Part shown: positions 6,314-62,100 of the stretch, one piece after another
Layout: the number at the start of each line of letters is the position of its first letter
Position numbering within the stretch: the stretch's first letter is position 1
Source of the DNA: Styela clava
Taxonomy: Eukaryota
Direction: 5' to 3'
DNA: 64,000 nt
NCBI RefSeq assembly: GCF_964204865.1
Contig: NC_135250.1
Coordinates: forward strand, 27,776,001-27,840,000
The notes under the pieces: model-generated
Seen by the model: the letters and a program-made list of their open reading frames with translations, nothing else
Told to the model about the DNA's origin: nothing
The model's database searches: none
Translations under genes and position numbers: made by a program

Positions 6314-7262
6314 ATTCTATATGAAATAGATATTGATAAAATGAGATATAACTTGTAATCTTAATTGTAATCTCAGAATATAACGTTCAGATTAAGATTA
6401 TTTTTAATCGCATATTAAACATCAATAGAAAGTGATGAATCGCGTGACTTCTCAAATTACGTTAAGTATTTCGTTATCATGGTTTCGTTTTCTGATCACT
6501 ATGAAGAAGCAATTTATGTACCTATTGCTCTCAGAACATAATGACAATATTTCATGTTAAAAATAAGAAATTTTTTTTATCTTTGGATATCACAGGCCTG
6601 CAGTAAAATTAAAACGGCTATTCAGTGATCTCCAGGAACATTTATTAACATGTTATTCGTGAAATTCTGCTTAAGTATGCTATTATTCCTGATAGAATTT
6701 AATTTAAAATATGCGACAATATATAATTATATGAATCAAAAGAAAAATGTTGAAACAAATTAGTGTTTGTTCATGGCAAAAATCGTTATCAATTAACTTA
6801 TGTGTCTGTAGGTATGTTCTTAGATATACAATTATATTTTTTGTTGGCTTGATTGATTAGGATTCCAAAGTTGAAACACAAGATCACAATAATTTACGTC
6901 CATGCTTTCTAATAATTGTTTGTTATAAAGTTGCTCTTTGAGTTTCTATAAATTACAATTCAGATCCGGGAAAGAAAGGACGATGTGCCGCACTATCATT
7001 CCAGGTTAAATAAAAATATCTCTTTGCAACTAAAATGTTTTCCCACATTTGTAATTGAGCCAGCATTTGATCATGCAAACCCACAAGATGCCAGATCGCC
7101 AATACATTTTTTCAATATTTAAAATTATGCAGTGAGATAGTCGTTGCAGACAAGCGTTTAATATGCGATTAAAAATAATCTTAATCTGAACGTTATAGTT
7201 TGAGATTACAATTAAGATTACAAGTTATATTTAATTTTATCAATATCTATTTTATATAGAAT
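6314..7262. repeat. ~105-bp inverted repeat pair (6314-6420 / 7156-7262) with a locally inverted segment
   Basis: 6314-6420 is the near reverse complement of 7156-7262. 6421-6888 is inverted relative to the paralogous spacer at ~33200-33710 and ~50957-51470. Confidence 0.8.
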
Positions 7263-7968: not shown

Positions 7969-10900
7969 TCAATATTCAATATCATGATACGGGTAAAAAT
8001 TAGTCGGTTCGTATACAGATGATCCATAAGGTTGTTGCAATGAATCGCTCGTTAAATATTTAATCTGATGCCTTGGATCGGGATGAGAAGTCATTGCAGA
8101 ATGCTCGTGACAAATAGGCAATTCGTATCCAGAAGTTTCGGTAGAGCTGGTTGTCTTTGATTGTTTAATAGTGTTGTTTTCGTAGATTCCGTGTTCACAT
8201 TCAAACTGAGCTTTTGACATATTTGTCATACTTGGTTTCTCATTATTCCGGATAGCAGTTGTATTCCTGTTGTTTTTCATCCTAAAATAATAAAAAAAAG
8301 TGTAGATTTTCAAGCTTCGGTGGTATCTCAATTTTTTGCAAGTCTATCTATTTCGGCGCCTGAGCCATGTAGATACAACAGTGATGCGAACATTTCGACA
8401 ATGCTAACGAAAGCAAGTTCGACAATTAATGAATTTAATGTTTCTTGATTATGATTTTGACCTACTACTACCGATCCCTGATGTCGTACTAACAACTCAA
8501 CCACTTTTGAATCAGCTAAAAATAATACCTCTCTAACACAGTTTATATTATTCAAAATAGAAAATCCATTTTTTTAAAACTGCTTTGTTGATATGTGATA
8601 CGAATACCCATATGGACATCTGAAAGCCGTTAGATTACGAGAGTTTCCAGATTCGAAAACAATAGGAAATAATTTGGATGCTAGCTCTTTTAAATCAATG
8701 CCCTTGTCTGTGCAACAGACACATGTGTGACATCACGATGACCAGTGTTCACCAAAATACGCGTAAAACATAGAATGAGCATTTTAGTTAAGCGTTAATA
8801 AAATGACATATGAGCCACAATAAAATATGAGCCACGCTACAAAAACGAAATGTTGCAACTGCGCGAGAAGGAGATTTTACTGCGCAAATGTTCTGGTGGT
8901 ACTGCGCAATTGCGCAATTGCGCAGCTTAGAGGGAACCTTGCTGATGTGTAATGCGGATATTTATATGAACATCAGAAAGCGGGCAGAGTCCGAGAGGAG
9001 TCCTTGTTTGTAAAATGTTTATCCAACATCCAATAGTGATTTGAATCTTACCTGTTAGCAAGAACAATGATAATGATCACTGCATTAACGAAAAGAATGC
9101 CAAGTACAATAGTAGAGATGAAGAGGATTTTATAAGTTTCTCTGCCAAAGTCGTTGCTACTGGTAGTTGGTTTTGTTAATTTCTCAACTTCAGTTTGTTC
9201 AAACGACGAAGATGTTGCGTCATTTGGGGATAGGTGCCTGTTGCCTTTAGTAGTTGCATTTTCATCATCTTTAAAAGCTGCAAAGTTTATATAATTCACC
9301 ATATTTGATTAATAACATTCATTACAACATTCTCAATTCTGATATTGACAGCATTAAAGTTTAGGAGATAAAATTCACACGAATTTTAATTTTGTTCTAT
9401 TTAATTTTTTCCTAAAGTATTTTGTCGATTTTAGTAAAGCCTGAAAATGTGTTTGTCATTTTATTTATATTATACAAAAGCAATAACTAAGTCGTGCTAA
9501 TGAATGATCGCTCAAAACGCCATAACTATTCAGTTTGGTCTAAATTAGAATAAATTCCTTGTTTATCATTAGCTTATTTGTTTTACCTTTGCTGCTTGTT
9601 TTTACATATATTGAAGGAATGCGAAAATCTTGGAAATGATCATAGAAACCATCCTCTGTCTTATAAGTAATATTTACTGTAAATATATTGCCTTCAATGA
9701 TATGAGGAAATACCCTAGCACATCTATGGGTAATAGTTTCATTATTCAAATTTTTTGGAGTAAAAGGGAAACAGTCGTTTGGTTGGGAATCACGTAGTTC
9801 TGTGCTAATTCGATGAAAAAATTTGCTATTTGCTGTACGGAGCATTTTATATAAATAGATTGATAAACATTGAATACAATAGGAAGAACTTAAGTTGAAA
9901 GAGACTAATTATATTCGCTTATACCTAATTTGTTGCTTTTACCCGCGCTGTTTAATATCCGGTGTATTAACTGGATATTGAATTCTTGTACTTCACGAGA
10001 GTAACCATCTCCTGTCTTATATGTCAAATTAATTGGAAAAACATTATCTCCAATGATAGGCATCCGTCAGTAATAGATTCATCAGATACAGTTTTTGAGG
10101 CGAAAAGGAAACATTCGTTGAGTTTGGAATCACACAGTTCTGTATCCACTAATCCAGCTGAAACATAGTGATCAATTGGTGACTTTACACAACAGTACAT
10201 AAAATACCTCCTATAATTTACCATATACGACACTAATTTGAGTATCGGGCCCTAATTTCACATATTATATACGATATATTGGTTACCTACGTGGAGATCT
10301 CGACAAAAAAACTGCAAATCCCAAATATATTTCGGTTTTTTTTAAACAGACAAAGTGGTACATTCTATTAGTGTTTATATGGTTAATGGTGGGAACATTA
10401 TCGCTTGTAATTTTGAGGGGAATTTATTTATTTTTGCGAAATTTGATGTGCATAACGGAGACTAACACAGTTGTGATTCCTAATTAACGCAACAGCAGAT
10501 CATAAAAACAACTATTAACCTTTAAAAACTATATAAGTTGTGCATTTATGCAACGTATAACACATAAACATGTTTTGAGAGAAATAACCACATGATGAAA
10601 TAAAATTACCAGGACACAAATCAATCGAAACAAGCCTTAAAGGCGGATACAAAACTATATTTTTATAATAAATTAAAGTTGTTTAATTGTTACAAATAAA
10701 CACGAAAAATGTATTCACTTTGATTACCAGTAATTTTCAGAGATCCAATGCACTGACTGTTTTGATTGAGATTATTTTCAGTAATTTTAACTAACAAGAC
10801 GCTGTTAACATATGTGCAACTATCGGTTTTGAATTTCCAAATACTGTATGTATCCCCTATTCTTCTGAAAAATACAATTTAAAAATGACTATTTAATCTA

Positions 10901-15835: not shown

Positions 15836-17389
15836 TCTTCAACCTGGGGTTAAATATGTAAAATCCTAACCTATCCAATTTTTGATAATCCACTGAACAT
15901 TTTATGTATCGATAATTGGTCCATGCGCGCCTTCTATTGTGACTATGAACAGGTCCTATGAGTAAGGGATTTCTGTTGGTCTGGTGATGTTTTATCACAG
16001 TCTTAATTTCTTAGTTTTTTTCAATTCAACGTACTATCAAATCCACACGTACTATCTTGTCTGCAACTAAAATTTCGTATTTCGCGCTGGTCAATATTAA
16101 AATTATGACGTCATATCACCAGAGGTTGTTTTGACTTCATTATCGCTTGAAGTACAAAGAGTAATGCATGTTTTGCATTACAGTTTAACAATTACAGAAG
16201 CTTTCAGTCGTTACCAACACAATTTAGGAAAGACATCAATGGAATCGGGAAAAATAATAAAACTGTCCTAATTTGAATACTGTCTTCATAACCCTGATGG
16301 CATATTCACCTACCTATACCATGAAGTTGATGTTTGGATTAGAAGTCCAACAATGAAAATGAATAAAATCATTCCAGGCATTATGTAGCTTATGATCTAG
16401 TTAACAAAGAAATCCGCAGCTGAATTATCTCCACTTTTATAAGCTAATCTTACAGTACTAAACAACGACATGCAAAAATACACTAGTTTTACTAGTGCTT
16501 TAACTTCATAATTTTATTCAACCTAATCGAATTTTAAAATGGGGACCGAACCGAATCGAGTTTTTTTCTTATATGTTCTGGTTTCATTGCCTAAATATGG
16601 TGTTATTGTCAGCTCGGTCGGCTCAACGTGTCCCTAAAAAATCACAGTCCCACCAAGGTTGTAATATATTCAGTAGCATATGCTTGACAAAAAATTCCGG
16701 AATTTCCAAAACATAGCAGATCGCTGCGTATTACAAGCAAGATGGAAAATACCATCGGTAATTTAGGTGTCTTGATGATGATAGTCATTTTCCAATTACA
16801 TATGGGCGCTGTTTGAGCGCGTCTCCGTCCTATTTGCAGATAATTTGTGGGCATTTTTACACTATTTTCAACAGAATATTTTTAAAAGACAAAAAATTTG
16901 GTGTGGATTGAATGAAATTCCAGCAATGCTATCGACATATGTTTTTGTCGCAATTTAACAAGGGTAGCATGCAGTATAATGAAGGGGAACAACAACAACA
17001 ACGGTATTTCCAAATCATAACAGCTTGCTCCGCCAATGATAATTTAGGTGACTTGATGATGATAAACTATCTTCCACTGACATATGGGCGCTGTTTGAGC
17101 GCTGATTCAAAGCAAGATGGGAAATTTAAAGGCAAATAAGAGGTCTTGATGATGATAAACCATTTTCCATTAACATATGGGCGCCGGTTGATCGCGCCTT
17201 CGTCGTATTTGCACGTAATCTGTAAGCATTTATTCTCAATTTTTATTTGAATATAGTAATTAATGGATCAAAATTTGGTGTGGATTGAATATGCTATCGT
17301 CATATAATTTTTTCGCTATTTAAAAGCAACAAGGATGCAGTTTAATAAAGGGGCACAACAACAACGTATCATCAACGTATCTGCTAGCA

Positions 17390-20300
17390 AAGGTATTTTT
17401 GGGTGTCTTGATGTCTGATAAAGCATTTTCCACTGACATATGGGCGCTGATTCGAAGCAAGGTGGAAAATATCAATGGTATTTTTGGGTGTCTTGATGTC
17501 TGATAAAGAATTTTCAACTGACATATGGGCGTTGATTCGAAGCAAGGTGGAAAATAACAATGGTATTTTTGGGTCTCTTAATGATGATAAAGCATTTTCA
17601 ACTGACATATGGGGGTTGATTCGAAGCAAGGTGGAAAATATCAATGGTGTTTTTGGGTGTCTTGATGTCTGATAAAGAATTTTCAACTGACATATGGGCG
17701 TTGATTCGAAGCAAGGTGGAAAATAACAATGGTATTTTTGGGTGTCTTAATGATGATAAAGCATTTTCAACTGACATATGGGCGTTGATTCGGAGCAAGG
17801 TGGAAAATATCAATGGTATTTTTGGGTGTCTTGATGTCTGATAAAGCATTTTCCACTAACATATAGGCGTTGATTCGAAGCAAGATGGAAAATAACAATG
17901 GTATTTTTGGGTGTCTTAATGATGATAAAGCATTTTCAACTGACATATGGGCGTTGATTCGAAGCAAGGTGGAAAATAACAATGGTTTTTTTGGGTGTCT
18001 TAATGATGATAAAGCATTTTCAACTGACATATAGGCGTTGATTCGAAGCAAGATGGAAAATAACAATGGTATTTTTGGGTGTCTTAATGATGATAAAGCA
18101 TTTTCAACTGACATATGGGCGTTGATTCGAAGCAAGGTGGAAAATAACAATGGTATTTTTGGGTGTCTTAATGATGATAAAGCATTTTCAACTGACATAT
18201 GGGCGTTGATTCGAAGCAAGATGGAAAATAACAATGGTATTTTTGGGTGTCTTAATGATGATAAAGCATTTTCAACTGACATATGGGCGTTGATTCGAAG
18301 CAAGGTGGAAAATAACAATGGTTTTTTTGGGTGTCTTAATGATGATAAAGCATTTTCAACTGACATATGGGCGTTGATTCGAAGCAAGGTGGAAAATAAC
18401 AATGGTATTTTTGGGTGTCTTAATGATGATAAAGCATTTTCAACTGAAATATGGGCGCTGATTCGAAGCAAGGTGGAAAATATCAATGGTATTTTTGGGT
18501 GTCTTGATGTCTGATAAAGCATTTTCCACTGACATATGGGCGTTGATTCGAAGCAAGGTGGAAAATAACAATGGTATTTTTGGGTCTCTTAATGATGATA
18601 AAGCATTTTCAACTGACATATGGGGGTTGATTCGAAGCAAGATGGAAAATATCAATGGTATTTTTGGGTGTCTTGATGTCTGATAAAGAATTTTCAACTG
18701 ACATATGGGCGTTGATTCGAAGCAAGGTGGAAAATAACAATGGTATTTTTGGGTGTCTTAATGATGATGAAGAATTTTCAACTGACATATGGGCGTTGAT
18801 TCGAAGTAAGGTGGAAAATATCAATGGTATTTTTGGGTGTCTTGATGTCTGATAAAGCATTTTCCACTAACATATAGGCGTTGATTCGAAGCAAGGTGGA
18901 AAATAACAATGGTATTTTTGGATGTTTTAATGATGATAAAGCATTTTCAACTGACATATGGGCGTTGATTCGAAGCAAGGTGGAAAATAACAATGGTATT
19001 TTTGGGTGTCTTAATGATGATAAAGCATTTTCAACTGACATATGGGCGTTGATTCGAAGCAAGGTGGAAAATATCAATGGTATTTTTGGGTGTCTTAATG
19101 ATGATAAAGCATTTTCAACTGAAATATGGGCGCTGATTCGAAGCAAGGTGGAAAACATCAATGTTATTTTTGGGTGTCTTAATGATGATAAAGCATTTTC
19201 CACTGACATATGGGCGTTGATTCGAAGCAAGGTGGAAAATAACAATGGTTTTTTTGGGTGTCTTAATGATGATAAAGCATTTTCAACTGACATATGGGCG
19301 CTGATTCGAAGCAAGGTGGAAAATAACAATGGTATTTTTGGGTGTCTTAATGATGATAAAGCATTTTCAACTGACATATGGGCGCTGATTCGAAGCAAGG
19401 TGGGAAATATCAATGGTATTTTTGGGTGTCTTGATGTCTGATAAAGCCTATTCCACTGACATATGGGCGCTGATTCGAAGCAAGGTGGGAAATATCAATG
19501 GTATTTTTGGGTGTCTTGATGTCTGATAAAGCATTTTCCACTGACATATGGGCGCTGATTCGAAGCAAGGTGGGAAATATCAATGGTATTTTTGGGTGTC
19601 TTGATGTCTGATAAAGCCTTTTCCACTGGCATATGGGCGCTGATTCGAAGCAAGGTGGGAAATATCAATGGTATTTTTGGGTGTCTTGATGTCTGATAAA
19701 GCCTTTTCCACTGACATATTGACGCTGATTCGAAGCAAGGAGGGAAATATCAATGGTATTTTTGGGTTATGGGTGTCTTGATGTCTGATAAAGCCTTTTC
19801 CATTGACAACTGGGCGCTGATTCGAAGCAAGATGGGAAATATCAATGGTATTTTTGGGTGTCTTGATGTCTGATAAAGCCTATTCCACTGACATATGGGC
19901 GCTGATTCGAATCAAGGTGGGAAATATCAATGGTATTTTTGGGTGTCTTGATGTCTGATAAAGCATTTTCCACTGACATATGGGCGCTGATTCGAATCAA
20001 GGTGGGAAATATCAATGGTTTTTTTGGGTGTCTTGATGTCTGATAAAGCATTTTACACTGACATATTGGCGCTGATTCGAAGCAAGGTGGGAAACACAAT
20101 GGTATTTTTGGGTGACTTGATGTCTGATAAAGCCTTTTCCACTGATATATGGGCGCTGATTCGAAGCAAGGAGGGAAATATCAATGGTATTTTTGGGTTT
20201 TGGGTGTCTTGATGTTTGATAAAGCCTTTTCCATTGACATATGGTCGCTGATTCGAAGCAAGGTGGGAAATATCAATGGTATTTTTGGGTGTCTTGATGT

Positions 20301-20420
20301 CTGATAAAGCATTTTCCACTGATATATGGGCGTTGATTCGAAGCAAGGTGGAAAATAACAATGGTATTTTGGCTGTCTTAATGACGATAAAACACTTTCA
20401 ACTGACATATGGGCGCCTGT
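17390..20420. repeat. 84/85-bp tandem satellite array, about 36 units
   Basis: Monomer ctgacatatgggcgttgattcgaagcaaggtggaaaataacaatggtatttttgggtgtcttaatgatgataaagcattttcaa (84 bp) plus an 85-bp variant with cttgatgtctgataaag. Units are head-to-tail with no unique spacers. Diverged monomers also occur at ~16735-17185. Confidence 0.95.
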
Positions 20421-24360: not shown

Positions 24361-24670
24361 GTTTTTTCGAATATGCCAGCTCCCGTCTCTTGCAACTACA
24401 CCGAAGAACTTTATTTGGTTATCCAAGGTATAAAATTGAAAACGTAAGGATAGGCCAATGCAACAGCCAATGCAACAGCATACATTTATCAGAGTATTCA
24501 TGTAACTAATCATTTAGTACGTGTTTTGAAGCGATGAATATTGCTTGCCAAAAAAATTTAAATTTCAATTAAATGAGAACAAGTTTTGAATAAAAAGGCA
24601 AAATAAAATACACGAAAGAGTACATGAAACATTAAAATAGTCTCTAAAATACGTATTGAGAAAAAAAGGT

Positions 24671-24883
24671 GTGCTCCCGTAGTATGTGCAACAAGATGGC
24701 GGTCACCGGAACGTAGTATGTGTATCAGGTTAGGATTAGGCTCCAATTTCAGGTACAAACACTACGGAAGTCACTTGGCTAGTCCACGAACTCATAATAG
24801 AACTAAATAAAGGGAAATTAGAATAAAATGATGATCTAACCCTAACCTGTATCCGCCATCTCGTTGCACATACTAAAGATAAC
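24671..24883. mobile_element. Long-TIR MITE copy 3' of B2
   Basis: Homologous to 7565-7805; right arm partly deleted. Confidence 0.7.
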
Positions 24884-25059
24884 AAAAAAGGAGTTTTAAC
24901 TCAGTTTGCTAAAGTTATTTGTTAAATATATGTATGATCATTTTTTATGTCTATATATACTCTATTATAGCAAGATCTGATCACTCAATCAGGAGTGACC
25001 ATACTCAATCCTGTCTAACTGAAATTGATGTTCAACAAATAACCAGATATAAGGTGAAG

Positions 25060-28000
25060 TCAGTATTCAATATCATGATACGGGTGAAAATTTGTCGGTT
25101 CGTATTCAGATGATCTATCAAGTTGTTGCAATGAATTACTCGTCAAGTACTCAATCTGATGCTTTGGATTGGGATGAGGAGTCATTGCAGAATGCTCGTG
25201 ACAAATAGGCAATTCATATCCAGGAGTTTCGGTAGAGCTGGTTGTTTTTGATTGTTTAATAGTGTTGTTTTCGTAGATTCTGTGTTCACATTCAAACCGA
25301 GCTTTTGATATATTTTTCATACTTGGTTTCTCATTATTCCGGATAGCAGTTGTATTCCTGTTTTTTTTCATCCTAAAATAATAAAAAAAGTATAAATTTC
25401 CAAGCTTCGGTAGTATCTCAATTTCTTGCAGGTCTAACTATTACGGCGCCTGAGCCTTGTAGATACAACAGTGATGCGAACATTTCGACAATGCTAACAA
25501 AAGCAAGTTCGACAATTAATGAATTTAATGTTTCTTGATTATGATTTTGACTTACTACTACCGATCTCTGATGTCGTACTAACGACTCAACCACTTTTGA
25601 ATCAGCTAAAAATAATACCTCTCTAACACAGTTTATATTATTCAAAATAGAAAATCCATTTTTTTAAAACTGCTATGTTGATATGTGATACGAATAACCA
25701 TATGGACATCTGTAGATTCCGAGAGTTGTTCCGGCATATTCCGAGAGTTTCCAGATTTGAAAACAATAGAAAACAAATTGGACGCTAGCTCTTTTAAATC
25801 AATGCCCTTGTCTGTGCAATTTTTATCCAACATCCAATAGTGATTTGAATCTTACTTGATAGTGATGACAATAATGATGATCACCGCAATAACGAGAAGA
25901 ATGACAAGTACAATAGTAGAGATGAAAAAGATTGTCTCTGTTTCTCTGCCAAAGTCGTCGCTAATTGTAGTTGGTTTTGTTATTTTCTTAACTCCAGTTT
26001 GTTCAAATAACGCAGTTATTGCTTCATTTGTGGGCAGGCGCGTGTTGCTTTCAGTAGTTGCAATTTGAACATCTTTATGAGCTTATTGAAAGTTTACATA
26101 ATTCAATATATTTAAATATTACCAATTATCAAAACAAGCACAATTACAATATTGACAGCATTGGAGTTTATGAAATAAAAAACACACTAATTTTATTTGT
26201 TCTAATTATTTTTTTTAAATATGTCGTTGATTTTGGTAAAGCCCAAAAATGTGTCAAGTGTTTTTGTTTATAATATATAAAAGCAATAACTAAGTCGTGC
26301 TAACGAATAACCGCTCATGAGGACATAACTATTCAGTTCGTTCTAAATTACAATAAATTTCATGTTCCATGTTCCATTAACGTATTTGTTTTCCCTTGTT
26401 TGCTGCTTGTTTTTACATAAATTGAGGGAATGCGAAAATCTTGGAAATGATTATAGAAACCATCCTCTGTCTTATAGATAATATTTATTGTAAATATAAT
26501 GCCTTCAATGATGATATGAGGAAATATTCTATCACATCCGTCAGTAATAGAATCATTAGATACATTTTTGAAGTAAAAAGGAAACTGTCGTTTGATTGGT
26601 TCTGTGCTAATTTGATAAAAAAAAATTGCTAATTGCTATACGGAGCATTTCTTATAAATAGATTGATAAACATTGAATACAATACGAAGAACTTAAGTTG
26701 AAAAGACTAATTATATTCTCTCATACTTTCTTGCTTTCACCTGTGTTGTTTATGATCCGGTATATCAAATGGATTCTGAATTCTTGAAATTCATGAGAGT
26801 AACCATTTCCTGTCTTATATGTCAAACTAATTGGAAAAATATTATCTTCAATGATATGCTGGTATATCCTATTACATCCGTCAGTAATAGATTCATATGA
26901 TACTGTTTTTGGGGCAAAAAGTAAACAGTCGTTGAGTTTGGAAGCACATAGTTCGGTATCAACCAATCCAGCTGAAAAATAGTGATGAATTGGCGCCCTT
27001 ACATTATAGTACATGATAATACCTCCTATAATTTACCATATACGTCACTAACATGAGTATCAGGTCCTAATTTCACATATTATATCCGATATATTGGTTA
27101 CCTACTTGGAGACCTCGGCAAAAAACGCATATCCCTCGTATTTGCGTTTTTTTTTTGAATAAAGTGATAAATTCTATTACTCTTTATATGGTGAATGGTG
27201 GGTACATTATCGCATGTAATTTTGAGGTAAATTATTTATTTTTGTGAAATTTGAAATACATAACTGAGACTAACACATTTGTATTTCCTAATTAACGCAA
27301 CAGCAGACAACTATTCATAAAGATAACTATTGAAAACTAGATAAGTAGTGCATTTATGCAACGTATAACATATAAACATGATTTGAGAGAAATAACCACA
27401 TGATGAAAAAAAATTACCAAGACACAAATTAATCGAAACAAGCCTTAAAGGCGGACTATATTTTTATAATAAATAGAAGTTGTTTAATTGTTAAAAATAA
27501 ACACGAAAAATATATTCACCTTGATTACCAGTAATTTTCAGAGATCCAATGCACTGACTGTTTTGATTGAGATTATTTTCAATAATTTTAAATAACAAGA
27601 CGCTGTTATCAGATGTGCAACTATCGTTTTTGAATTCCCAAATACTGTATGTATCCCCTGCTCTTCTGAAAAATACAATTTAAATATTATTTATTTGAAC
27701 TATATTTTCATGTTCATATACGGCTGGATGATCATAAAATTTCATTTCATCATTTTAAAAGTTTATCAAAGTAAAATAAATATTTTACATCATTCCGTTG
27801 AATATTATTCATATAAAAATTAATTATTAATGGATTTGATGCTTTATTCGCATCAATTTTCATCAGAATTTAATTAAAAAAAGGCAAAATATTTACCTTG
27901 CATTTACTCCACTTTCAGGTGTAGAACATAAATCAACGTTAATCTGACTCAGACCAATAGATCGGTGAAGTATTGCTGCTACTATTGGTAAACAAAAAAG

Positions 28001-28387
28001 AAGATTAGTTGCGTTGAATTGTTTTCCTCAGAACTGACAAGCCGTAAGTCCGCTCTGAGGGGTTTATGTTTCAAATACGCGATATTTTATTAAAGATGAC
28101 TTCGTTAAGTATACGTACATTTATATGCAAATGCACTAATTAGATATATTGAAAAAAAAGTCAAGGTATAAAATATTGAAGTCCAAAATTTCTAAAAGAC
28201 TCAAACCTTCAATGGATTTCTAGAATCCATATCACTCAGTCTAAAAGTTCCGAAATCATTCAAATTTGAATCATTTCCTGTATGTAGTGAAGTAAACAAC
28301 ACCTATTCAAATATATACAATATTGAAAGTCACGATATAAACAAATTACTCACCAATAAGATACAATACCCAGGTATTGAAATGCAT
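25060..28387 (-). CDS. Receptor B2: chimera with class A 5' end and class B stalk/TM/tail, apparently intact via exon 4a
   Basis: Exons 28387-28354, 27981-27897, 27665-27529, 26971-26741, 26072-25856, 25372-25060, all open and in phase. The exon 4b remnant (~26394-26635) has a stop and a GG donor. The 5' flank and exon 2 (LSQINVDL) match A1 rather than B1/B4/B5. Confidence 0.8.
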
Positions 28388-29271
28388 GTTTTACAAATAT
28401 GCCAGCTCCCGTCTTTTGCAACTACACCGAAGAACTTTATATGGTTATCCCAATGTATAAAAATTGAAAATTTGTCAGGCTAACAGTTGTTATGTATGCA
28501 TTCATCAAAGTATTTATGTATCTACTCTTTTATTACGTGTACTGAAGCGATGAATATTACTTGCCAAATGGAGATACGTAATTGTAAAGTACGCTCTTTG
28601 TTAATTGATATTGTGTGATATCATTTCCTTGTGCACAGACGATCACCTGCAGCAGTTTACTAAGGTTGTTAAATTGTTATCATGATCTGACAAATGTAAT
28701 TCAATAATTGAGATCGAATCTTCCGAACCAAATTTTGAATTGGAAATATTGCTAATTTAGTTCCCAAACACTTTGGCCAAGTTATGAACAATGCTATGAA
28801 AGAAGATAGCGATGGTCAAATATATATGGACACGAAATGGTATGGGTATGCAATTTGTCACAATTTGTTGTATCTACAACGCTTAGGCGCCGAATTAGTT
28901 AACACTGATGCGAACATTTCGACAATGCTAACAAAGTTGTACAATTAATTAATTTAATGTTTCTTGATTATGATTTTTACCTACTACTACCGTTCATAGA
29001 TGTCGTACTAACGACTCAACCACTTTGTTTATATTGTTTATATTTAGTTTATATTATTCAAAATAGAAAATCCATTTTTTGAAAACTGCTTTGTTGATAC
29101 GTGATACGAATACCCATATGGACATCTGAAGATTCCGAGAGTTGTTCCGGCAGACTCCGACAGTTTCCAGATTTGAAAACAATAGAAAACAAATTGGACG
29201 CTAGCTCTTTTAAATCAATGCCCTTGTCTGTGCAATGTTTATTCAACATCCAATAGTGATTGGTATCTTAC

Positions 29272-31660
29272 TTGATAGTGAGGACAATAATGATGATCAC
29301 TGCAATAACGAGAAGAATGCCAAGTACAATAGTAGAGATGAAAAAGATTTTCTTTGTTTTTCTGCCAAAGTCGTTGCTACTTGTAGTTGGTTTTGTTATT
29401 TTCTCAACTCCAGTTTGTTCAAACGACGCAGTTGTTGCTTCATTTGTGGGCAGGCGCGTGTTGCTTCCAGTAGTTGCAATTTGAACATCTTTATAAGCTT
29501 ATTGAAAGTTTACATAATTCAATATATTTAAATAATACCAATTATCATAACAAGCACAATTACAATATTGACAGCATTGAAGTTTTTGAAATAAAAACCA
29601 CACTAATTTTATTTTGTTTTAATTTTTTTTTAAATATGTCGTCGATTTTGGTGAAGTCCAAAAATGTGTCAAGTTATTTTGTTTATAGTATATAAAAGCA
29701 ATAACTAAGTCGTGCGAACGAATAACCGCTCATAAGGACATACCCATTCAGTTCGTTATAAATTACAATAAATTCCATGATCCATTAGCGTATTTGTTTT
29801 CCCTTATTTGCTGCTTGTTTTTACATAAGTTGAAGGAATGCGAAAATTTGGAAATGATCATAGAAATTCATCCATCCTCTGTCTTATAGGTAATATTGTA
29901 ATATAGGTTTGGTTGGGAATCACAAAATTCTGTGCTAATTTGATAAAAATATTTCTATTTGCTATATGGAGCATTTTATAATATAGATTGATAAACATTG
30001 AATACAATCCAAAGAACTTAAGTTGAAAGAGACTAATTAAATTCGCGTATACCTAATTTGTTGCTTTTACCTGTGTTGTTTAATATCCGGAATATTGACC
30101 TGATGTTGAATATTTGTACTTTATGAGAGTAACCATCCCCTGTGTTATATGTCAAATTAATTGAAAAAACTTTATCTCCAATGATATGCTGGTGTGCCCC
30201 ATTACATCCGTCAGTAATAGATTTATCAGATACAGTTTGTGGGGCAAAAAGGACACAGTCGTTGGGTTTGGAATCACATAGTTCTGTATCAACCAATCCA
30301 GCTGAAAAAGAGTGATGAATTGGCGCCCTTACAATATAGTACATGATAATACCTCCTATAATTCACCATATACGTCACTAATATGAGTATCAGGTCCTAA
30401 TTTCACATATTATATCCAATATATTGATTACCTACTTAGAGATCTCGGCAAAAAATGCATATCCCTAGTATCTACGTTTTTTTTCTGAATAAAGTGATAA
30501 ATTCTATTACGCTTTATATGGTGAATGGTGGGTACATTATCGCATGTAATTTTGAGGTAAGGTATTTATTTTTATGAAATTTGAAATACATAACTGAGAC
30601 TAACACATTTGAATTTCCTAATTAACGCAACAGCAGACAACTATTCATAAAGATAACTATTGAAAACTAGATAAGTAGTGCATTTATGCAACGTATAACA
30701 TATAAACATGATTTGAGAGAAATAACCACATGATGAAAAAAAATTACCATGACACAAATTAATCGAAACAAGCCTTAGAGGCGGACTATATTTTTATAAT
30801 AAATAGAAGTTGTTTGATTGTTAAAAATAAACACGAAAAATATATTCCCCTTGATTACCAGTAATTTTCAGAGATCCAATGCACTGACTGTTTTGATTGA
30901 GATTATTTTTAATAATTTTAAATAACAAGACGCTGCTAACAGATGTGCAACTATCGGTTTTTAATTCCCAAATACTGTGAATATCCTCTGCTCGTCTGAA
31001 AAATACAATTTGAAAATAAATATTTGAACTATATTTTCATGTTCATATACGGCTGGATGATAATAAAATTTCATTTCATCATTTTAAAAGTTTATCAAAG
31101 TAAAATTTTCCTATATTTTACATCATTCCATTGATTAATATTCATATAAAAACTAATTATTAATGGATTTAATGCTTTATTCGTATCAATTTTTATCAGA
31201 ATTTAATTACAAAAAGGAGAAATGTTTACCTTGCACCCACTCCTATTTCAGGTGAAGAAAACAAATCAACGTTAATATGACTCAGACCAATAGATCAGTG
31301 AAGTCGTGCAGCAACTATCGGTAAACAAAAAGAAGATTAGTTGTGTTGAATATTTTTTCTTCAGAACTGACAAGTCCTAAATCCGCTCTAAGGGTTTGAG
31401 TTTCGAATACACGAAATAGCAAAAAAGATGACTATGTTAAAAAGTATACTCAAAGTTCTAATATTCATATCACTCATTCTAAAAAGTTTCGTATTTATTC
31501 AAATTTAAATGAGGCATTTTACCTCAACAAATTCTTTCCCTGTACGTATTGAAGTAAACAACACTTATCCGCTTATATACTTTAGTGAGAGTCACCAATG
31601 AAAAATGACATGAACAAATTACTCACCTATGAATAACAATACCCGCACAAAGAAATGCAT
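29272..31660 (-). pseudogene. Receptor B3 pseudogene (A/B chimera, nonsense codon, tail exon deleted)
   Basis: Exons 31660-31627, 31314-31230 (TGA at 31295-31297; conserved Cys lost), 30995-30859, 30301-30071, 29488-29272. The last exon is missing: intron 5 is fused to the B2 upstream region at ~28867-28901. Confidence 0.85.
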
Positions 31661-34312
31661 GTTTTTCAAATATATCAGTTGCCGTCTCTTGTACATACAC
31701 CAAATAGATTTATTTGGTTATCCCAAGGTATAAATTTGAGAACGTAAAGGTCGGCCAAGGCAATAGTTGTTACACATGCGTTCATCACAGTATTCATGTA
31801 CCTATTCATTTATTACGTGTACCAATGCGATGAATATTATTTGACAAATGCAGATTAGTAATTGTAAAGTACGCCCGATGTTAATTGGTAATGCGTGGGA
31901 TCGCTTCCTCGTACGTAGACAATCACCTGCAACAGTTTACTAAGGTTCGTTATTTGAAATCATGATCTGACTGATGTTATTCAATGATTGAGATCGAATC
32001 TTCCGAACAAAAATTTTGAATCGGAAATATTGCTAATTTAGTTCGTGAACACTTTGGATATTTTTAATTTACTTAGATTACTCTTCACCCATTATATATT
32101 TTTAAAGTGAATTGGCTAAATTATGAACAATGCTATGAAACATGAGAGCGATGGTCAATGCGATGGTCAAATATATGGACACGAAATGGTACGGGTATGC
32201 AATTTGTCACAATTTGGCACCGTATTGCAGCTGAGCACATATTTTACCTTACGCAAAAGCGAAACCACCACAAGGAGTGCAGTTTTTAATTTCGATGACG
32301 TCATCGCACAAAAAAAAATCTGTTAGAGGCCACACATATTTTTGAGAAAGAGCAATGGCCAAATATGTGGACGTAAAGGTCGGGCATTGGTACTGATACG
32401 GAAAGTCTTAAGCTTAGCAGGACGTTGACTGAAAGATCGTCGGACAAGCGTGGCGAAGTGAAGTCTCACTAGAACAACCATCTGTACGATGTTTGGGTAT
32501 ATCCACTTGGTATATCACCTTCCTAAAACAAATATAAAGATCCAATACCTAACTGCAGTACCTATGCAAACTAAACTGAAATCTAATCATTCAAAAGCAT
32601 CAAATGGCAGTAAGCATCGTTACAGGTCATGCTTTAGTTGTTTAGCTGAACAGTGAACAGCAGCGGTGTCAAAAGTCACGTGGTCGCGCAATATTTGTGA
32701 TAATAAAAAGACAGTGGATGAAATGTAGAACCCAACAAGGCTCGAAGGATATTTGAAAAAATATAAAAGTAATTCTCTTCTGGAAACTACTACCACCTTC
32801 ATGTCATCAAGATTTGAAATTGATTAGTCCATTGGTTTTGTTCATAATAATTTCAGGTGTAAATAATTCTAACAATTTTTGTTTCAGTCTTGTTGCTGCA
32901 TTTTGATTTGGGTATGTATCGGGCAACGAATTTTCTGATGAGACTCGGTAGTGTTTTAGTTTTGATTATTTGTTTAATATTTTCTCATCTTATTGATATT
33001 CCGTAGTATTTTTGGGTTTATTGGTATTGAATTATTTTTCAATCCTTTACGATATTACTTTTCCAACCGCAGATTTTCCCATTTCATAAAAATTGAACGT
33101 TGGTGAACTTGCGTTTTCTTAATTACAATATTACGACATAGAGTTAGCCGTCTAGGACCAAATGCCGAGGTAAAAATCGTTAGCGAACGATCTTTCTCTG
33201 GTGTGATCTTGTTTCAACTTTGGAAGCCTAATCAATCAAGCCAACAAAAATTATAATTGTATATCTAAGAACATAACTACAGACACATTATTTAACTGAT
33301 AATGATTTTTGCCATGAACCCACTAATGTGTTTATTTTATTTTTTTTGATTAATACATTTAAAACTTGTCTCATATTTTTAATTAAATTCTATCAGAAAG
33401 AATAGCACATTTAAGCAGAATTTTATAAATAACATGTTGATAAATGTTCAAGGAGATCACTGAATAGCTATACATTGTCCTGCAGGCCTGTGATATCTAA
33501 AGTTAAAAAACCTGTCTTTACAACCTGTAATTTTGTCATTATGTTCTGAGCAATAAGCACCTCAATTGTCTCGTCAACGTGATCAGAAATTGAAACCATG
33601 ACAACAAAATACTTTATCGTAAATTGAGAAGTCACGCGAGAATAATAAACGATCTATTACATCCTGTTTGTTGCACTCTTGTATTTCTTGTCATCAATTT
33701 CTATTGGTGCAATTTATTTCCAATAGATTACGTCCATGATTTCTAATAATTGTTTGTTATAAAGTTGCTCTTTAAGTTTCTATGAAATATAAATCAGATC
33801 CGGGAAAAAAACAACAATATGCCGCACTATTATTTCAGATCAAATATAAATATCGCGTTGCAACTAGAATGTTTTTCCACAATTGTAGTTGAGTCAATAT
33901 TGCAGACAAGCATTTAATATGCGATTAAAATAATCTTAATCTGCACGGTATAGATTGTGATTTCAATTAGTATTACAAGTTATATTTCATTCTTTCATCT
34001 ATTTCATATAGCTGAATCTATATACAAAAAAATATAAAAGTTTAAATTAAATTCAAAATGTATACAGCAATTTACTTAAAAAATTGCATAAGCCTAAACT
34101 CGTTTTTTCTACATGTATATCAAATATATATTGATAACCCTCTATACTTCCCCAAAAATTCTCTATGTCCACCCTAGACATTTAACTTGGCTCATTTAAA
34201 TTTCATGTTGAATGAGAACAAATATTGAATAAAAAGGCAAAATAAAATACACGAAAGATTACATGAAACATCAAAATAGTCTATAAAATACGAATTGAAA
34301 AAATAAATAAAA

Positions 34313-34531
34313 TACTCCCGCAGTATGAGCAACAAGATGGCGGACACCAGAACGTATCAGGTTAGGGTTAGGCCCTAATTTCAGGTACAAATACTACGGG
34401 AGTCACTTGGCTAGTCCACGAAATCATAATAAAAGAAGGAAAATTGGAATAAAATATTGATCTAACCATAACCTGATACACATACTATGTTCAGGTGTCC
34501 GCCATCCTGTTGCACATACTACAAGAGAACC
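34313..34531. mobile_element. Long-TIR MITE copy 3' of B4
   Basis: Homologous to 7565-7805; contains caggttagggttagg. Confidence 0.7.
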
Positions 34532-34734
34532 AAAAAAGGAGTTTTAACTCAGTTTGCTAGAGTTATTTGTTAAATATATGTATGCTCATTTTGTATGTCT
34601 ATATATACCTATTATAGCAAGATCTGATCTCTTAATCAGGAGTGACTATACTCAGTTCTGTCTAGTCACAAGGGGTCAACGAGATGAAGAAAAACTGAAA
34701 TATTGTTCAACAAATAAACAGGTATAAGGTGAAA

Positions 34735-43789: not shown

Positions 43790-44605
43790 CTATTTTTGGG
43801 TGTCTTGATGTCTAATTAAGCATTTTCCACTGACATATACTCGCTGATTCAAAGGAAGGTGGAAAATAACAATGGTATTTTTGGGTGTTTCAATGATGAT
43901 AAAGCATTTTCCACTGACATATGGGCGCTGATTCGAAGCAAGGTGGAAAATATCAATGGTATTTTTGGGTGTCTTGATGTCTGATAAAGCATTTTCAACT
44001 GACATATGGGCGTTGATTCGAAGCAAGGTGGAAAATAACAATGGTATTTTTGGGTGTCTTAATGATGATAAAGCATTTTCAACTGACATATGGGCGTTGA
44101 TTCGAAGCAAGGTGGAAAATAACAATGGTATTTTTGGGTGTCTTAATGATGATAAAGCATTTTCAACTGACATATGGGCGTTGATTCGAAGCAAGGTGGA
44201 AAATAACAATTGTATTTTTGGGTGTCCTAATGATGATAAAGCATTTTCAACTGACATATGGGCGTTGATTCGAAGCAAGGTGGAAAATACCAATGGTATT
44301 TTTGGGTGTCTTAATGATGATAAAGCATTTTCAACTGACATATGGGCGTTGATTCAAAGCAAGGTGGAAAATATCAATGGTAGATTTGGGTGTCTTGATG
44401 TCTGATAAAGCATTTTCCACTGACATATGGGCGTTGATTCTAAGCAAGGTGGAAAATAACAATGGTATTTTTGGGTGTCTTGATGTCTGATAAAGCATTT
44501 TCCACTGACATATGGGCGTTGATTCTAAGCAAGGTGGAAAATAACAATGGTATTTTTTGGTGTCTTAATACTGATAAAACATTTTCAACTGACATATGGG
44601 CGCCT
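43790..44605. repeat. 84/85-bp satellite array, about 10 units
   Basis: Same monomers as 17390-20420, at the paralogous position. Confidence 0.95.
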
Positions 44606-52583: not shown

Positions 52584-55500
52584 TCAATATTGAATATCAT
52601 GATACGGGTGGAAATTTGTCGGCTCGTATTCAGATGATCCATCAGGTTGTTGCAATGAATCACTCGTCAAGTATTTGATCTGATGCTTTGGATCGGGATG
52701 AGAAGTCCTTGCAGAATGCTCGTGACAAATAGGCAATTCGTATCCAGCAGTTTCAGTAGAGCTGGTTGTCTTTGATTGTTTAATAGTGTTGTTTTCGTAG
52801 ACTCCGTGTTCACATTCAAACTGAGCTTTTGATATATTTTTCATACTTGGTTTCTCAATATTCCGGATAGCAGTTGTATTCCTGTTGTTTTTCAACCTAA
52901 AATAAAAATAAAGTATAGATTTTCAAGCTTTCGTATTATCTCAAATTCTTGCAGGTCTAACTATTTCGGCGCCTAAGCCAGGGTCGGCCAACCTTTTTAG
53001 CCAACGGGCCACATTTAGTTTACTAATAATTGCACGGGCCACTTAACATGGTAAATATTTTCCAGTTTTGCTACACTGACTAAAAGTTAATGAAAATGCA
53101 AACAAAACCCTCGAATCAAACTTTCTCAATAATAAGAACATTAAAAAAACGAAGATACTGTAAAGTCAACAAAGGTATTTCTACGCGTAGATATTTTGGT
53201 GTGAAGTTTGACAAAATTTCAATATTCGCTGAAATGGACGATGTAGCTATGCGAAGCCAATTGTTTATATGACTGTCATAAATTAGTGATTTCACAGGTA
53301 ATTCAAAGCGCCAAAGCAATCCAAAGTTGTCAACTCATCAATATTTTGCTTCATTGCTAAAACATCAAGGATTTTATGCATGCACATACCACGCCTAAAC
53401 ACACAGCATTGGCAATTATCATTTATGTCCCCAGCAGATTTGACCAAGTAATATTTGGTTGGTGCTACATTTGAACGAGAGACCACGTGATAAAATAAAA
53501 GAAGATTGTCTCACAGATGAGATAACGTTGAAGAGAGTAGTAGAAGACCCAAGTGTGTAAGCGACTATTTAAGTATCGATATCTTCCAGTTGGTTTCGAT
53601 TCCAAATGGTACTCATCGCTCGTTTGAAAGGGCTAGCAGAGCGCATTTCAGGATAATGAACAAATTTTGTGTATCAAATCTTTATATTAACTACATCACT
53701 TGAAAATTAGAAATTTTACGCAATTTTTTTTATTTATTTTCGAAAATACAGGGCGGGCCACTCGAAACTCCTCGGTGGGCCAAATGTGGCCCCGCGGGCT
53801 ACGGGTTGGACGACCCAGGCCTAAGCCTTGTAGATAACACCGTGATGCCAACATTTCAACAAGGCTAACGAAAGCAAGTTCAACAATTAATGAATTAAAG
53901 CTTTCTTGATTATGATTTTGACCTACTACTACCAATCCCTGATGTCGTACTAACGACTCAACCACTTTTAAATCAGTTAAAAATATTACCTCTCTAACAC
54001 AGTTTATATTATTCAAAATAAAAAATCCATTTTGTTTTAAACTGCTTTGTTGATATATGATACGAATACCCATATGGACATCTGAAACCCGGCAGATTCC
54101 GAGAGTTTCCAGATTTGAAAACAATAGAAAATAAATTGGATGCTAGCTCTTTTAAATCAATGCCCTTGTTTGTGCAATGTTTATTCAACATCCAATAGTG
54201 ATTTGAATCTTACTTGATAGTGAGGACAATAATGATGATCCCTGCAATAACGAGAAGAATGCCAAGTACAATAGTAGAGATGAAAAAGATTTTCTTTGTT
54301 TCTCTGCCAAAGTCGTCGCTACTTGTAGTTGGTTTTGTTAACTTCTCAACTCCAGTTTGTTCAAACGACGCAGTTGTTGCTTCATTTGTGGGCAGGCGCG
54401 TGTTGCTTTCAGTAGTTGCAATTTGAACATCTTTATGAGCTTATTGAAAGTTTACATAATTCAATACTAAACATCACAACATGCACAATTACAATATTGA
54501 CAGCATGAAAGTTTATGAAATAAAAACCACACTAATTTTATTTTGTTCTACTTTTTTTTTAATATGTCGTCGATTTTGGTAAAGCCCAAAAATAAGTCAA
54601 GGTATTTTGTTTATAGTATATAAAAGCAATAGCTAGTGCTAACGAATAACCGCTCATAAGGACATAACTAATCAGTTCGTTTTAAATTACAATAAATTCC
54701 ATGTTCCATTAGTGTATTTGTTTTCCCTTGTTTGCTGCTTGCTTTACATAAATTGAGGGAATGCGAAAATCTTGGAAATGATCATAGAAACAATCCTCTG
54801 TTTTATAGGTAATATTTATTGTAATTATATTGCCTTCAATGATGATATGAGGAAATATTCTAGCACATCCGTCAGTAATAGAATCATTGAATACATTTTT
54901 GAAGTAAAAAGGAAACAGTCGTTTGGTTGGGAATCACAAAGTTCTGTGCTAATTTAATCAAAAAAATTGCTAATTGCTATATGAAGCATTTTATAAAATA
55001 GATTGGTAAACATTGAGAACTAACATAATAACTAGAGACTATTTAAATTTACTTATACCTAATTTGTTGCTTTTACCTGTGTTGTTTATTATCCGGTATA
55101 TTGAATGGATGTGTATTTCTTGTAATTCAGAAGAGTAACCATTCCCCGTCTTATATGTCAAATTGATTGGAAAAATATTGTCTCCACTGATATGACGGTG
55201 TATTCCATTACATCCGTCAGTAATAGATTCATCAGATACAGTTTTTGAGGCAAAAAGGAAACAGTCGTTGAGTTCAGAATCACACAGTTCTTTATCCACT
55301 AATCCAGCTGTAACATATGTATCAATTGGTTTCTTTACATGATAGTACATGATAATACCTCCTATAATTTACCATATACGGCACTAATGTGAGTATCGGG
55401 TCCTATTGTCAAATAATATCCGATATATTGGTTACCTACGTAGATATCTCGGTAAAAAACAACATATTCCAAGTGTGTAATTTTGAGGAAAAATATTTAT

Positions 55501-61699: not shown

Positions 61700-62100
61700 A
61701 TAATTTAGATGTCTTGATGATGATAAACCATTTTACATGGACATATGGGCAATGTTTGAGCGCTGATTCAATTAAGGTGGAAAATATCAATGGTATTTTT
61801 GGTGTCTTGATGTCTGATAAAGCATTTTCCACTGACATATTGGCGCTGATTCGAAGCAAGGTGAGAAATATCAATGATGTTTTTGTGGGTGTCTTGATAT
61901 CTGATAAAGCATTTTCCACTGACATATTGGCGCTGATTCGAAGCAAGGTGGGAAATACCAATGGTATTTTGGATGTCTTCATAATGATAAACCATTTTCA
62001 ACTGACATATTGGCGCTGATTCGAAGCAAGGTGGGAAATACCAATGGTATTTTGGATGTCTTCATGATGATAAACCATTTTCAACTGACATATGGGCGCC
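61700..62100. repeat. 84/85-bp satellite, about 4-5 diverged units
   Basis: Same monomer at the paralogous position 3' of gene A4. Confidence 0.85.

What the first reader, a model, noticed from the sequence alone, without database searches (positions are those of the whole stretch)
25060..31660. Chimeric genes: class A promoter and N-terminus fused to class B tail
Seen: B2 and B3 have B-type exon 4b/stalk/TM ends but A-type 5' flanks (ccgaac.aaattttgaat.ggaaatattgctaatttagttc versus ccaaactaaattttt in B1/B4/B5) and the A1-like exon 2 signature gactcagaccaatag. They are followed by the spacer that normally follows A genes. The order A2-B2-B3-spacer-B4 is what repeated unequal crossing-over between A and B inside the shared exons would give. 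Inference: the cluster reshuffles recognition ends, promoters and signalling tails.
Basis: partly seen in the sequence, partly recalled or inferred. Interest (0 to 1): 0.7.

Follow-up and report, generated by a model that had tools for sequence, protein, structure and literature searches.

The report
Sea-squirt receptor genes swapping heads, tails
In a sea squirt, a tandem array of more than twenty genes for a surface protein with a predicted CUB-like outer domain and two kinds of tyrosine-bearing inner tail is a patchwork, likely made by repeated unequal recombination that re-pairs upstream DNA, outer domains and tails, much as in human KIR immune receptor genes.

Summary
The window lies in a Styela clava tandem array of type I membrane-protein genes (22 copies modelled over about 190 kb) with a predicted CUB-like ectodomain and two tail classes, A and B. 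B2 and B3 do carry the 5' flank of A1/A3/A4, not that of B1/B4/B5. That flank is not class A, however. It sits on 7 A-tailed and 8 B-tailed copies and tracks the neighbour's tail (13 of 15). B2's promoter and domain are nearest to other B-tailed copies, and the exon-2 signature occurs in 1 of 9 A copies. The heads form a recombining pool (PHI p=0.001). The reciprocal product (A5) and a cleaner A-to-B hybrid (B10) lie outside the window. 'Exon 4b' is a relic of a lost B-type head, so every array B gene is likely an old A-head/B-tail fusion. B2 is an intact 341-aa ORF. B3 is a pseudogene, and the B2/B3 join is a deletion with a 35-bp inversion, not a homologous crossover. Hybrid genes of this kind are known (KIR, Botryllus FF/FcoR), but I found no description of this family. 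Its function is untested.

The parts
25060..25372 (-). B2 last exon: B-type cytoplasmic tail with six tyrosines (YENN, YELP, YLTS, YEPT, YHDI, terminal Y) and stop codon
   Evidence: a TM-to-tail joint in an RNA contig of a related copy (X11 record 13); the same join in RefSeq model P0002
25856..26081 (-). B2 stalk and transmembrane exon (B type)
   Evidence: 0.99 identical to B10, 0.94-0.95 to B6/B5/B3
26395..26674 (-). B2 relic 'exon 4b' plus the end of intron 3 of a lost B-type head; acceptor lost, donor GG
   Evidence: exon 4b groups with exon 4 of LOC120326597 (97/88) and keeps about 40 nt of that gene's intron-3 end
26674..26675 (-). old fusion point shared by the array B genes: A-type intron 4 (first ~66 nt) joined to the B-type relic
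   Evidence: A and B copies are alike up to GTATTGTATTC after the exon-4a donor and diverge there
26741..26971 (-). B2 exon 4a (second half of the CUB-like domain)
   Evidence: 0.98 to B10, 0.94 to B6; donor used in an RNA contig of a related copy (X10)
27020..27870 (-). tract of B2 (intron 2 to intron 3) 90-99% identical to B3; from ~27490 downwards 96-100% identical to B10; exchange or conversion tract
27529..27665 (-). B2 exon 3
   Evidence: exon 3 to exon 4a join in an RNA contig of a related copy (X7 record 23)
27897..27981 (-). B2 exon 2 (contains gactcagaccaatag on + at 27946)
   Evidence: 0.88 to A1 and 0.88 to B11
28354..28387 (-). B2 exon 1 (ATG, signal peptide start)
   Evidence: exon 1 to exon 2 join in an RNA contig of a related copy (X11)
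28388..28865 (-). B2 5' flank, type P ('A-type'), cut off at about 480 bp; diagnostic block near 28720-28773
   Evidence: 0.90-0.93 to B6/Bm1/B9, 0.81-0.85 to A1-A3; clade with B6/Bm1/B9 99/97
28866..28900 (.). 35-bp inverted piece of the B last intron at the deletion junction that removed B3's tail exon and B2's spacer (about 3 kb, by comparison with B3-B4)
   Evidence: reverse complement matches the adjacent intron segment at 32 of 35 bases in B4 and B6
28901..31660 (-). B3, pseudogene: stalk/TM 29272-29497, part-deleted relic 4b 29803-29929, exon 4a 30071-30301, exon 3 30859-30995, exon 2 31230-31314 with TGA at codon 18, exon 1 31627-31660; no tail exon
   Evidence: short-read contigs match 29659-30039 and 31077-31666 without a difference
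31661..34734 (-). B3 5' flank (type P) and full spacer leading to the B4 tail
24361..25059 (-). A2 5' flank and spacer remnant: about 190 bp of proximal flank, a ~2.3-kb deletion at ~24553, then the spacer end before B2's tail
   Evidence: the same deletion is in A8

Best explanation
B2 and B3 are two B-tailed copies in a tandem array of Styela clava membrane-protein genes whose shared heads (exons 1-4a, a predicted CUB-like domain) are mosaics, likely because misaligned recombination inside the heads re-pairs two intergenic modules: P (flank, spacer, B tail of the next gene) and Q (flank, dead tail, long spacer, A tail of the next gene). Shown: flank type follows the neighbour's tail, not the gene's own tail; the heads are recombinant; both hybrid directions exist (P flank on B tail, Q flank on A tail); B2 is an intact ORF and B3 is not. 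Inferred: (1) an old deletion put an A-type head onto a B-type gene and left 'exon 4b' as a relic, so all array B genes are old hybrids; (2) unequal crossing-over and gene conversion in the heads then produced runs of P modules such as A2-B2-B3-B4; (3) later non-homologous deletions trimmed A2's and B2's flanks and removed B3's tail. Likely function, by analogy only: cell-surface recognition receptors whose variable domain binds a non-self or allelic ligand, with A and B tails recruiting different phosphotyrosine-binding partners, so that exchange alters which domain drives which signal.
For: Flank against own tail: P on 7 A and 8 B copies, Q on 1 A and 5 B, Fisher p=0.34 (A9 unclassified). 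Flank against neighbour's tail: P leads to a B tail in 13 of 15, Q to an A tail in 6 of 6 (read from the map). The P/Q signal is confined to the upstream 480 bp (p<=0.0045), and no window from exon 1 to exon 4a groups by flank or tail at p<0.05. PHI p=0.001 for 21 heads and for exons alone. Segment trees conflict: B10 goes with A2/A3/A8 (100/100) from the ATG to intron 2 but with B2 in exon 3-4a; B8 goes with A1 (100/100); A7 goes with B1/B4/B5/B7 (95/97); A5's flank lies inside the Q clade. Exon 4b groups with exon 4 of LOC120326597 and keeps its intron-3 end. The tail remnants in Q flanks group with that gene's tail, 100/100. Fold: AlphaFold pLDDT mostly 79-95 over residues 21-160; top matches are CUB domains, Kremen1 Z 11.3 (rmsd 2.4, 104 aligned) and TSG-6 Z 10.5. 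Spliced RNA contigs of related copies support five joins. dN/dS is 0.38 (0.21-0.72) for the B tail and 0.68 (0.49-0.93) for the domain.
Against: Only 6 of 210 pairs show a significant identical tract, and 2 of those are A-B pairs, so most exchanges are old and breakpoints are not sharp. One haplotype only; no crossover was seen as a polymorphism. Near-copies (A2/A8, B4/B12, B2/B10) inflate the tail clustering in exon 3-4a. Domain dN/dS is below 1, so diversifying selection is not shown. Only 8 of 22 modelled copies have a full ORF with canonical splice sites. No transcript of B2 itself was seen; the listed RNA contigs are 80-96% alike. Neither tail has a canonical ITIM or ITAM. The exon-4b grouping rests on 231 columns with support 97/88.
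Confidence: 0.72

Rival explanations
1. One reading: A and B are two whole-gene classes, and B2 and B3 are products of A-by-B crossovers that gave a B tail a class-A promoter and N-terminus.
For: B2/B3 flanks are excluded from the B1/B4/B5 clade; exon 2 of B2 is 0.88 to A1; A5 is the reciprocal and B10 and B8 fit this pattern; an alternating A-B ancestor cannot be excluded.
Against: The P flank is on 8 of 13 B-tailed copies; B2's flank groups with B6/Bm1/B9 (99/97); B2 and B3 heads group together and with no A gene; B2's nearest domains are B10, B6, B5, B7; the exon-2 signature is in 1 of 9 A copies.
Confidence: 0.15
2. P-flank/B-tail genes are simply the ancestral B lineage, multiplied by whole-unit tandem duplication; the mosaic heads come from short gene-conversion tracts, with no crossover that re-pairs tails.
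For: Q flanks form one young clade on a long branch while P flanks are an unresolved background; the B2/B3 tract is bounded on both sides, as a conversion tract would be; the block holding A2 and most of B2 recurs at 95-99% identity 111 kb away.
Against: B10, A5 and B6 switch partners once and stay switched through kilobases of flank or tail, which conversion tracts do not easily give.
Confidence: 0.1
3. The mosaics are assembly errors in a repeat array.
For: Copies reach 98-100% identity over hundreds of bases; no listed contig bridges 28866-28900 and depth is low in that bin.
Against: No N in 244 kb of a 32.7-Mb contig; most copies differ by 5-25%; short-read contigs match B3-specific stretches of 381 and 590 bases exactly (these runs may be the assembly's own source); both hybrid directions recur many times.
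Confidence: 0.03

Closest known systems
Human KIR hybrid genes (KIR2DL1/2DS1, KIR2DL5A/3DP1 and reciprocal; PMC2816608, passages read)
   Same: Tandem array of near-identical receptor genes; unequal crossover makes hybrids with switched promoters or altered tails; reciprocal products; pseudogenes among the copies.
   Different: KIR are Ig-domain MHC receptors with ITIM or DAP12 signalling. Here the domain has a predicted CUB fold, both tails are long, neither has a canonical ITIM or ITAM, the TM has no charged residue, and ligand and cell type are unknown.
Botryllus schlosseri Fester family and FcoR genes (PMC12582321, passages read)
   Same: Ascidian type I receptors in clusters; ectodomain and intracellular trees conflict through intergenic recombination; tyrosine motifs. 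The A tail's (A/D)MYSVV resembles FcoR core-2 [A/D]VYxxV, and distant Styela paralogues P0008/P0009 read DAVYSV.
   Different: FF/FcoR have Ig-like and Sushi domains and occur as cognate pairs. This family has one CUB-like domain, a single core-2-like motif, and no relative was named outside Styela clava among 12 hits.
CUB-domain fold (Kremen1, TSG-6, neuropilin, spermadhesin, C1r/C1s)
   Same: Ten-strand beta-sandwich; Z 9-11 over 101-116 aligned residues; the top 18 rows are CUB-containing proteins (family names recalled).
   Different: 6-13% identity; no Pfam CUB match at E<=1 in the listed rows; six cysteines; about 140 residues on three exons.

Membership tests
Hybrid genes from non-allelic homologous recombination (KIR type) | 5' and 3' parts of one gene have different nearest paralogues | tested here: met
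   B2, B10, B8, A7, A5 in segment trees and sliding identity
Hybrid genes from non-allelic homologous recombination (KIR type) | reciprocal hybrid exists | tested here: met
   A5: Q flank 0.90-0.96 to B1/B4/B5 with an A tail
Hybrid genes from non-allelic homologous recombination (KIR type) | both parents identifiable, with one breakpoint, for B2 and B3 (an A-class 5' parent) | tested here: not met
   no A-tailed 5' parent; several switches; nearest copies mostly B-tailed
Hybrid genes from non-allelic homologous recombination (KIR type) | gene content varies between haplotypes | tested here: inconclusive
   run X5 of another sample gave almost no cover at 92% likeness, but it is a Hi-C library and no single-copy control was laid
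Paired activating/inhibitory immune receptors | closely related ectodomains on two different tails, clustered | tested here: met
   domains 67-84% identical among 15 in-frame copies of both tail classes
Paired activating/inhibitory immune receptors | canonical ITIM on one class; ITAM or charged TM residue on the other | tested here: not met
   A: (A/D)MYSVV and DNVLY; B: YENN, YELP, YLTS, YEPT, YHDI; uncharged TM; consensus motifs from PMC12582321 passages and recall
Paired activating/inhibitory immune receptors | opposite signalling and expression on immune cells | not testable with these tools
   contigs show spliced family transcripts only
Botryllus FF/FcoR | Ig-like and Sushi domains | tested here: not met
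   single domain with CUB-like fold
CUB domain | CUB beta-sandwich fold | tested here: met
   predicted model; Z 11.3 to Kremen1 CUB, rmsd 2.4, 104 aligned; ESM Atlas leads at 0.81-0.85 to CUB clusters
CUB domain | Pfam PF00431 sequence match | tested here: inconclusive
   no match for single exons; none among the 25 of 41 families shown for 12 whole proteins

The most novel reading that the evidence does not exclude
An undescribed Styela family of CUB-fold signalling receptors forms a KIR/FcoR-like recognition system, built convergently on a non-Ig, non-lectin scaffold. Its array shuffles one pool of variable domains between two tyrosine tails and two promoters, its whole B class was born from an A-head/B-tail fusion, and haplotypes differ in gene content. 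It would be a candidate for self/non-self or pathogen recognition in a solitary ascidian.
Probability: 0.3. Interest if true: 0.72.

Novelty: new variant of a known kind. Interest (0 to 1): 0.47.

Why it matters
Head-tail shuffling in receptor clusters is known from KIR and from Botryllus allorecognition receptors. Finding the same genomic grammar on a CUB-like scaffold in a related, solitary ascidian would extend the case that tails and array structure recur while recognition domains are recruited anew. The locus also keeps a readable record of how one tail class acquired another gene's head (the relic exon), and it offers intact natural hybrids (B2, B10) for tests. If the genes are not recognition receptors, it is an ordinary birth-and-death array.

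Tried and rejected
Pfam on 7 single exons and 12 whole proteins gave only weak hits, mostly to transmembrane or low-complexity parts. Three searches of the large protein set returned 1, 2 and 2 proteins, all S. clava, so no second haplotype was found that way. No RNA holder was listed for 24400-32400. Laying four guessed-RNA runs at 80% gave family-level joints only, not B2 transcripts. Run X7 and parts of the stretch had little or no cover, which says nothing on expression. Run X5 gave almost no cover, which is uninterpretable without a control. No listed contig bridged 28866-28900, but that table was cut. A 12-nt micro-exon between TM and B tail was considered and rejected: the contig has 153 letters where direct splicing gives 150 and the micro-exon 162, and RefSeq P0002 joins directly. 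Inclusion of exon 4b was considered unlikely: it would add half a domain, and only 4 of 12 copies (B1, B2, B9, B10) read open from a weak acceptor, 3 of them with a non-GT donor. The up480-350 window is uninformative for B2 because it spans the junction. Positive selection on the domain was not shown. Literature searches found no description of this family: (listings only); one search gave no paper. PMC9546547 passages were reference-list hits only. Paper supplements were not read; the FF/FcoR trees cited are in them. Look-ups of earlier findings by place and by sequence were empty. No complex was predicted, as no binding claim is made.
Full report
Setting. The window is G000:C1:27776001-27840000 of a 377-Mb animal genome. 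Proteins from the same 32.7-Mb contig are named Styela clava. I fetched 40 kb on the left and 140 kb on the right and mapped 17 probes across the 244 kb. The array runs from about -16,300 to +174,800 in window coordinates, all on the minus strand. I modelled 22 copies: 9 A-tailed (Am1, A1-A5, A7-A9) and 13 B-tailed (Bm1, B1-B12). Fragments Am2, Bm2, A6, F1, X1 and the divergent end gene B13 (LOC120326597, P0014) were not modelled. An older group of paralogues lies about 150-190 kb to the left, with further copies on other contigs.

Gene structure. Exon 1 (34 nt coding), exon 2 (85), exon 3 (137), exon 4a (231), a stalk/TM exon and a tail exon. Contigs of four guessed-RNA runs, 80-96% alike in the listed pieces and so from other copies or alleles, join exon 1 to 2, exon 3 to 4a, exon 4a to an A stalk, A TM to A tail, and B TM to B tail. 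RefSeq models P0001 (Am1) and P0002 (B11) agree except at one donor each. B2 gives a 341-aa ORF with canonical splice sites. B3 has TGA at codon 18 and no tail exon. Eight of 22 copies are clean: A1, A4, A7, Bm1, B2, B5, B9, B10. Four of the five clean B copies carry the 'A-type' flank.

Protein. Signal peptide, one domain of about 140 residues, Thr/Ser-rich stalk, uncharged TM, tail. An AlphaFold model from 12 sequences is confident over the domain. Its best structural matches are CUB domains: Kremen1 Z 11.3, TSG-6 10.5, neuropilin-2 10.2. Foldseek mixes CUB domains with other jelly-rolls at E about 2e-4. Pfam finds no CUB. A search of 1.84 billion representatives gave 12 proteins; 11 are named S. 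clava and one is unnamed. The A tail has QQENE repeats, (A/D)MYSVV and DNVLY; the B tail has six tyrosines. dN/dS is 0.38 for the B tail (6 copies) and 0.68 for the domain (15 copies), so purifying selection is seen and positive selection is not (pairwise counts, recombination ignored).

The observation. Only B3 is followed by the spacer. B2's flank stops at about 480 bp and meets B3's last intron through a 35-bp inverted copy of neighbouring intron sequence (32 of 35 bases), so about 3 kb with B3's tail exon was lost by a non-homologous event. A2's flank has a separate 2.3-kb deletion, shared with A8.

What the flanks are. Call the 'A-type' flank P and the 'B-type' flank Q. Of 21 classified copies (A9 left out; A2 and A8 assigned by their distal spacer), P is on 7 A and 8 B tails and Q on 1 A and 5 B tails (Fisher p=0.34). 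P leads to a B tail in 13 of 15 cases (B6 and B9 are the exceptions) and Q to an A tail in 6 of 6. The inherited unit is therefore flank plus spacer plus the neighbour's tail, and the exchange points lie in the heads. P/Q structure is significant only in the 480 bp upstream of the ATG. In eight windows from exon 1 to exon 4a neither label reaches p<0.05 (20 copies, A8 and A9 dropped). In trees the tail label needs 6 changes on the flank (shuffled 5.3), 5 from ATG to intron 2 (7.0) and 3 on exon 3-4a (7.3), the gradient expected from crossovers spread along the head, though near-copies inflate the last figure. PHI gives p=0.001 for 21 heads and for exons alone; 6 of 210 pairs have a significant identical tract, three of them among B2, B3 and B10.

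B2 and B3 in particular. B2's proximal flank is 0.90-0.93 identical to B6/Bm1/B9 and 0.81-0.85 to A1-A3. Exon 1 with the start of intron 1 is nearest to A5, Am1, A7 and A1 but only at 0.82-0.85. Exon 2 is 0.88 to A1 and to B11. Intron 2 to intron 3 is 90-99% to B3, and from about 27490 through the tail B2 is 95-100% to B10. Its domain is nearest to B10, B6, B5 and B7 (0.84-0.78), against 0.70-0.74 for A copies. The exon-2 signature is in A1, B2, B3 and B11 only. So B2 is a mosaic, mostly of B-tailed copies with P flanks, and no class-A N-terminus exists. Cleaner cross-class hybrids lie outside the window: B10 (intact; 5' with A2/A3/A8, 3' with B2), B8 (5' with A1; broken) and the reciprocal A5 at 83,900-86,725 (Q flank, A tail; frameshift near its end).

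A deeper layer. A and B copies share about 66 nt after the exon-4a donor and then part. What follows in B copies aligns with the end of intron 3 and exon 4 of B13, and all 11 exon-4b sequences in the tree (B3's part-deleted one and B7's left out) group with B13's exon 4 (97/88). The ancestral acceptor is lost, and 8 of 12 relics have stops or frameshifts. The simplest reading is that one deletion joined an A-type head to a B-type gene that lost its own head; every array B gene descends from that fusion. Q flanks hold a dead tail of the B13 type (100/100). This step is inference from one tree and one alignment. It leaves open which flank the first fused gene carried, so B1/B4/B5 may be the derived combination.

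Assembly. Short-read contigs of one study match B3-specific stretches exactly. They may be the assembly's own source, are too short to link flank to tail, and none listed bridges the junction. An artefact is unlikely, not excluded.

Comparison. KIR hybrids arise by unequal crossover, with promoter switching, altered tails and reciprocal products (PMC2816608, passages). Botryllus FF and FcoR genes mix ectodomains and intracellular regions by intergenic recombination (PMC12582321, passages). This array works like them at the DNA level but belongs to neither family: the domain differs and canonical ITIM/ITAM motifs are absent. An unreviewed note from this scan reports a similar CUB-receptor hybrid in abalone (not checked). 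Four searches found no paper on this family.

Verdict. The feature is real and the mechanism broadly right, but the class assignment of the N-terminus is wrong, one of the two genes is dead, and the cleanest hybrids are elsewhere in the array. The process is known; the family appears undescribed and its role in recognition is an analogy. Interest 0.47.

Noticed in passing
window 24674-24875 (similar sequence in the same spacer position before other B tails): A high-copy element with 30-nt inverted arms (24680-24709 and 24846-24875), MITE-like, with very high depth in all runs laid.
   Followed up: partly
window 17388-20415, 43791-44602, 1429-1761, 61760-62099: An 84-bp tandem repeat downstream of A tails with 35.7, 9.6, 4 and 4 copies; long open frames run through it but look like a by-product of the repeat.
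   Followed up: no
L008 (window-relative 83,900-86,725), gene A5: Reciprocal hybrid with a Q flank and an A tail; it ends at the same frameshifted C-terminus as Am1.
   Followed up: yes
L013-L014 (window-relative about 131,700-138,700): A8 plus the 3' part of B10 repeat A2 plus B2 at 95-99% identity, 111 kb away; B10's 5' end is A2/A3-like instead.
   Followed up: yes
L015 8896-10000 and L016 1-1234 (B13, LOC120326597): Intact divergent B-like gene at the end of the array with its own head; best model of the lost B head and source type of the dead tails in Q flanks.
   Followed up: yes
G000:C1:27584300-27622000 (L019-L023): Older paralogue group, mostly on the opposite strand, with both tail types; two loci have an A-type stalk remnant or A-type TM exon followed by a B-type stalk and tail, suggesting earlier tail swaps.
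   Followed up: partly
window 9943-10157 and 9587-9799 (B1): B1's exon 4a has a 16-bp deletion while its relic exon 4b is open with a GT donor; splicing exon 3 to 4b could in principle give a whole domain. Untested.
   Followed up: no
window 6440-6888: Part of the spacer after A1 is inverted relative to other copies.
   Followed up: no
window about 52980-53819 and 8716-9001: Copy-specific insertions in the last introns of B5 and B1.
   Followed up: no
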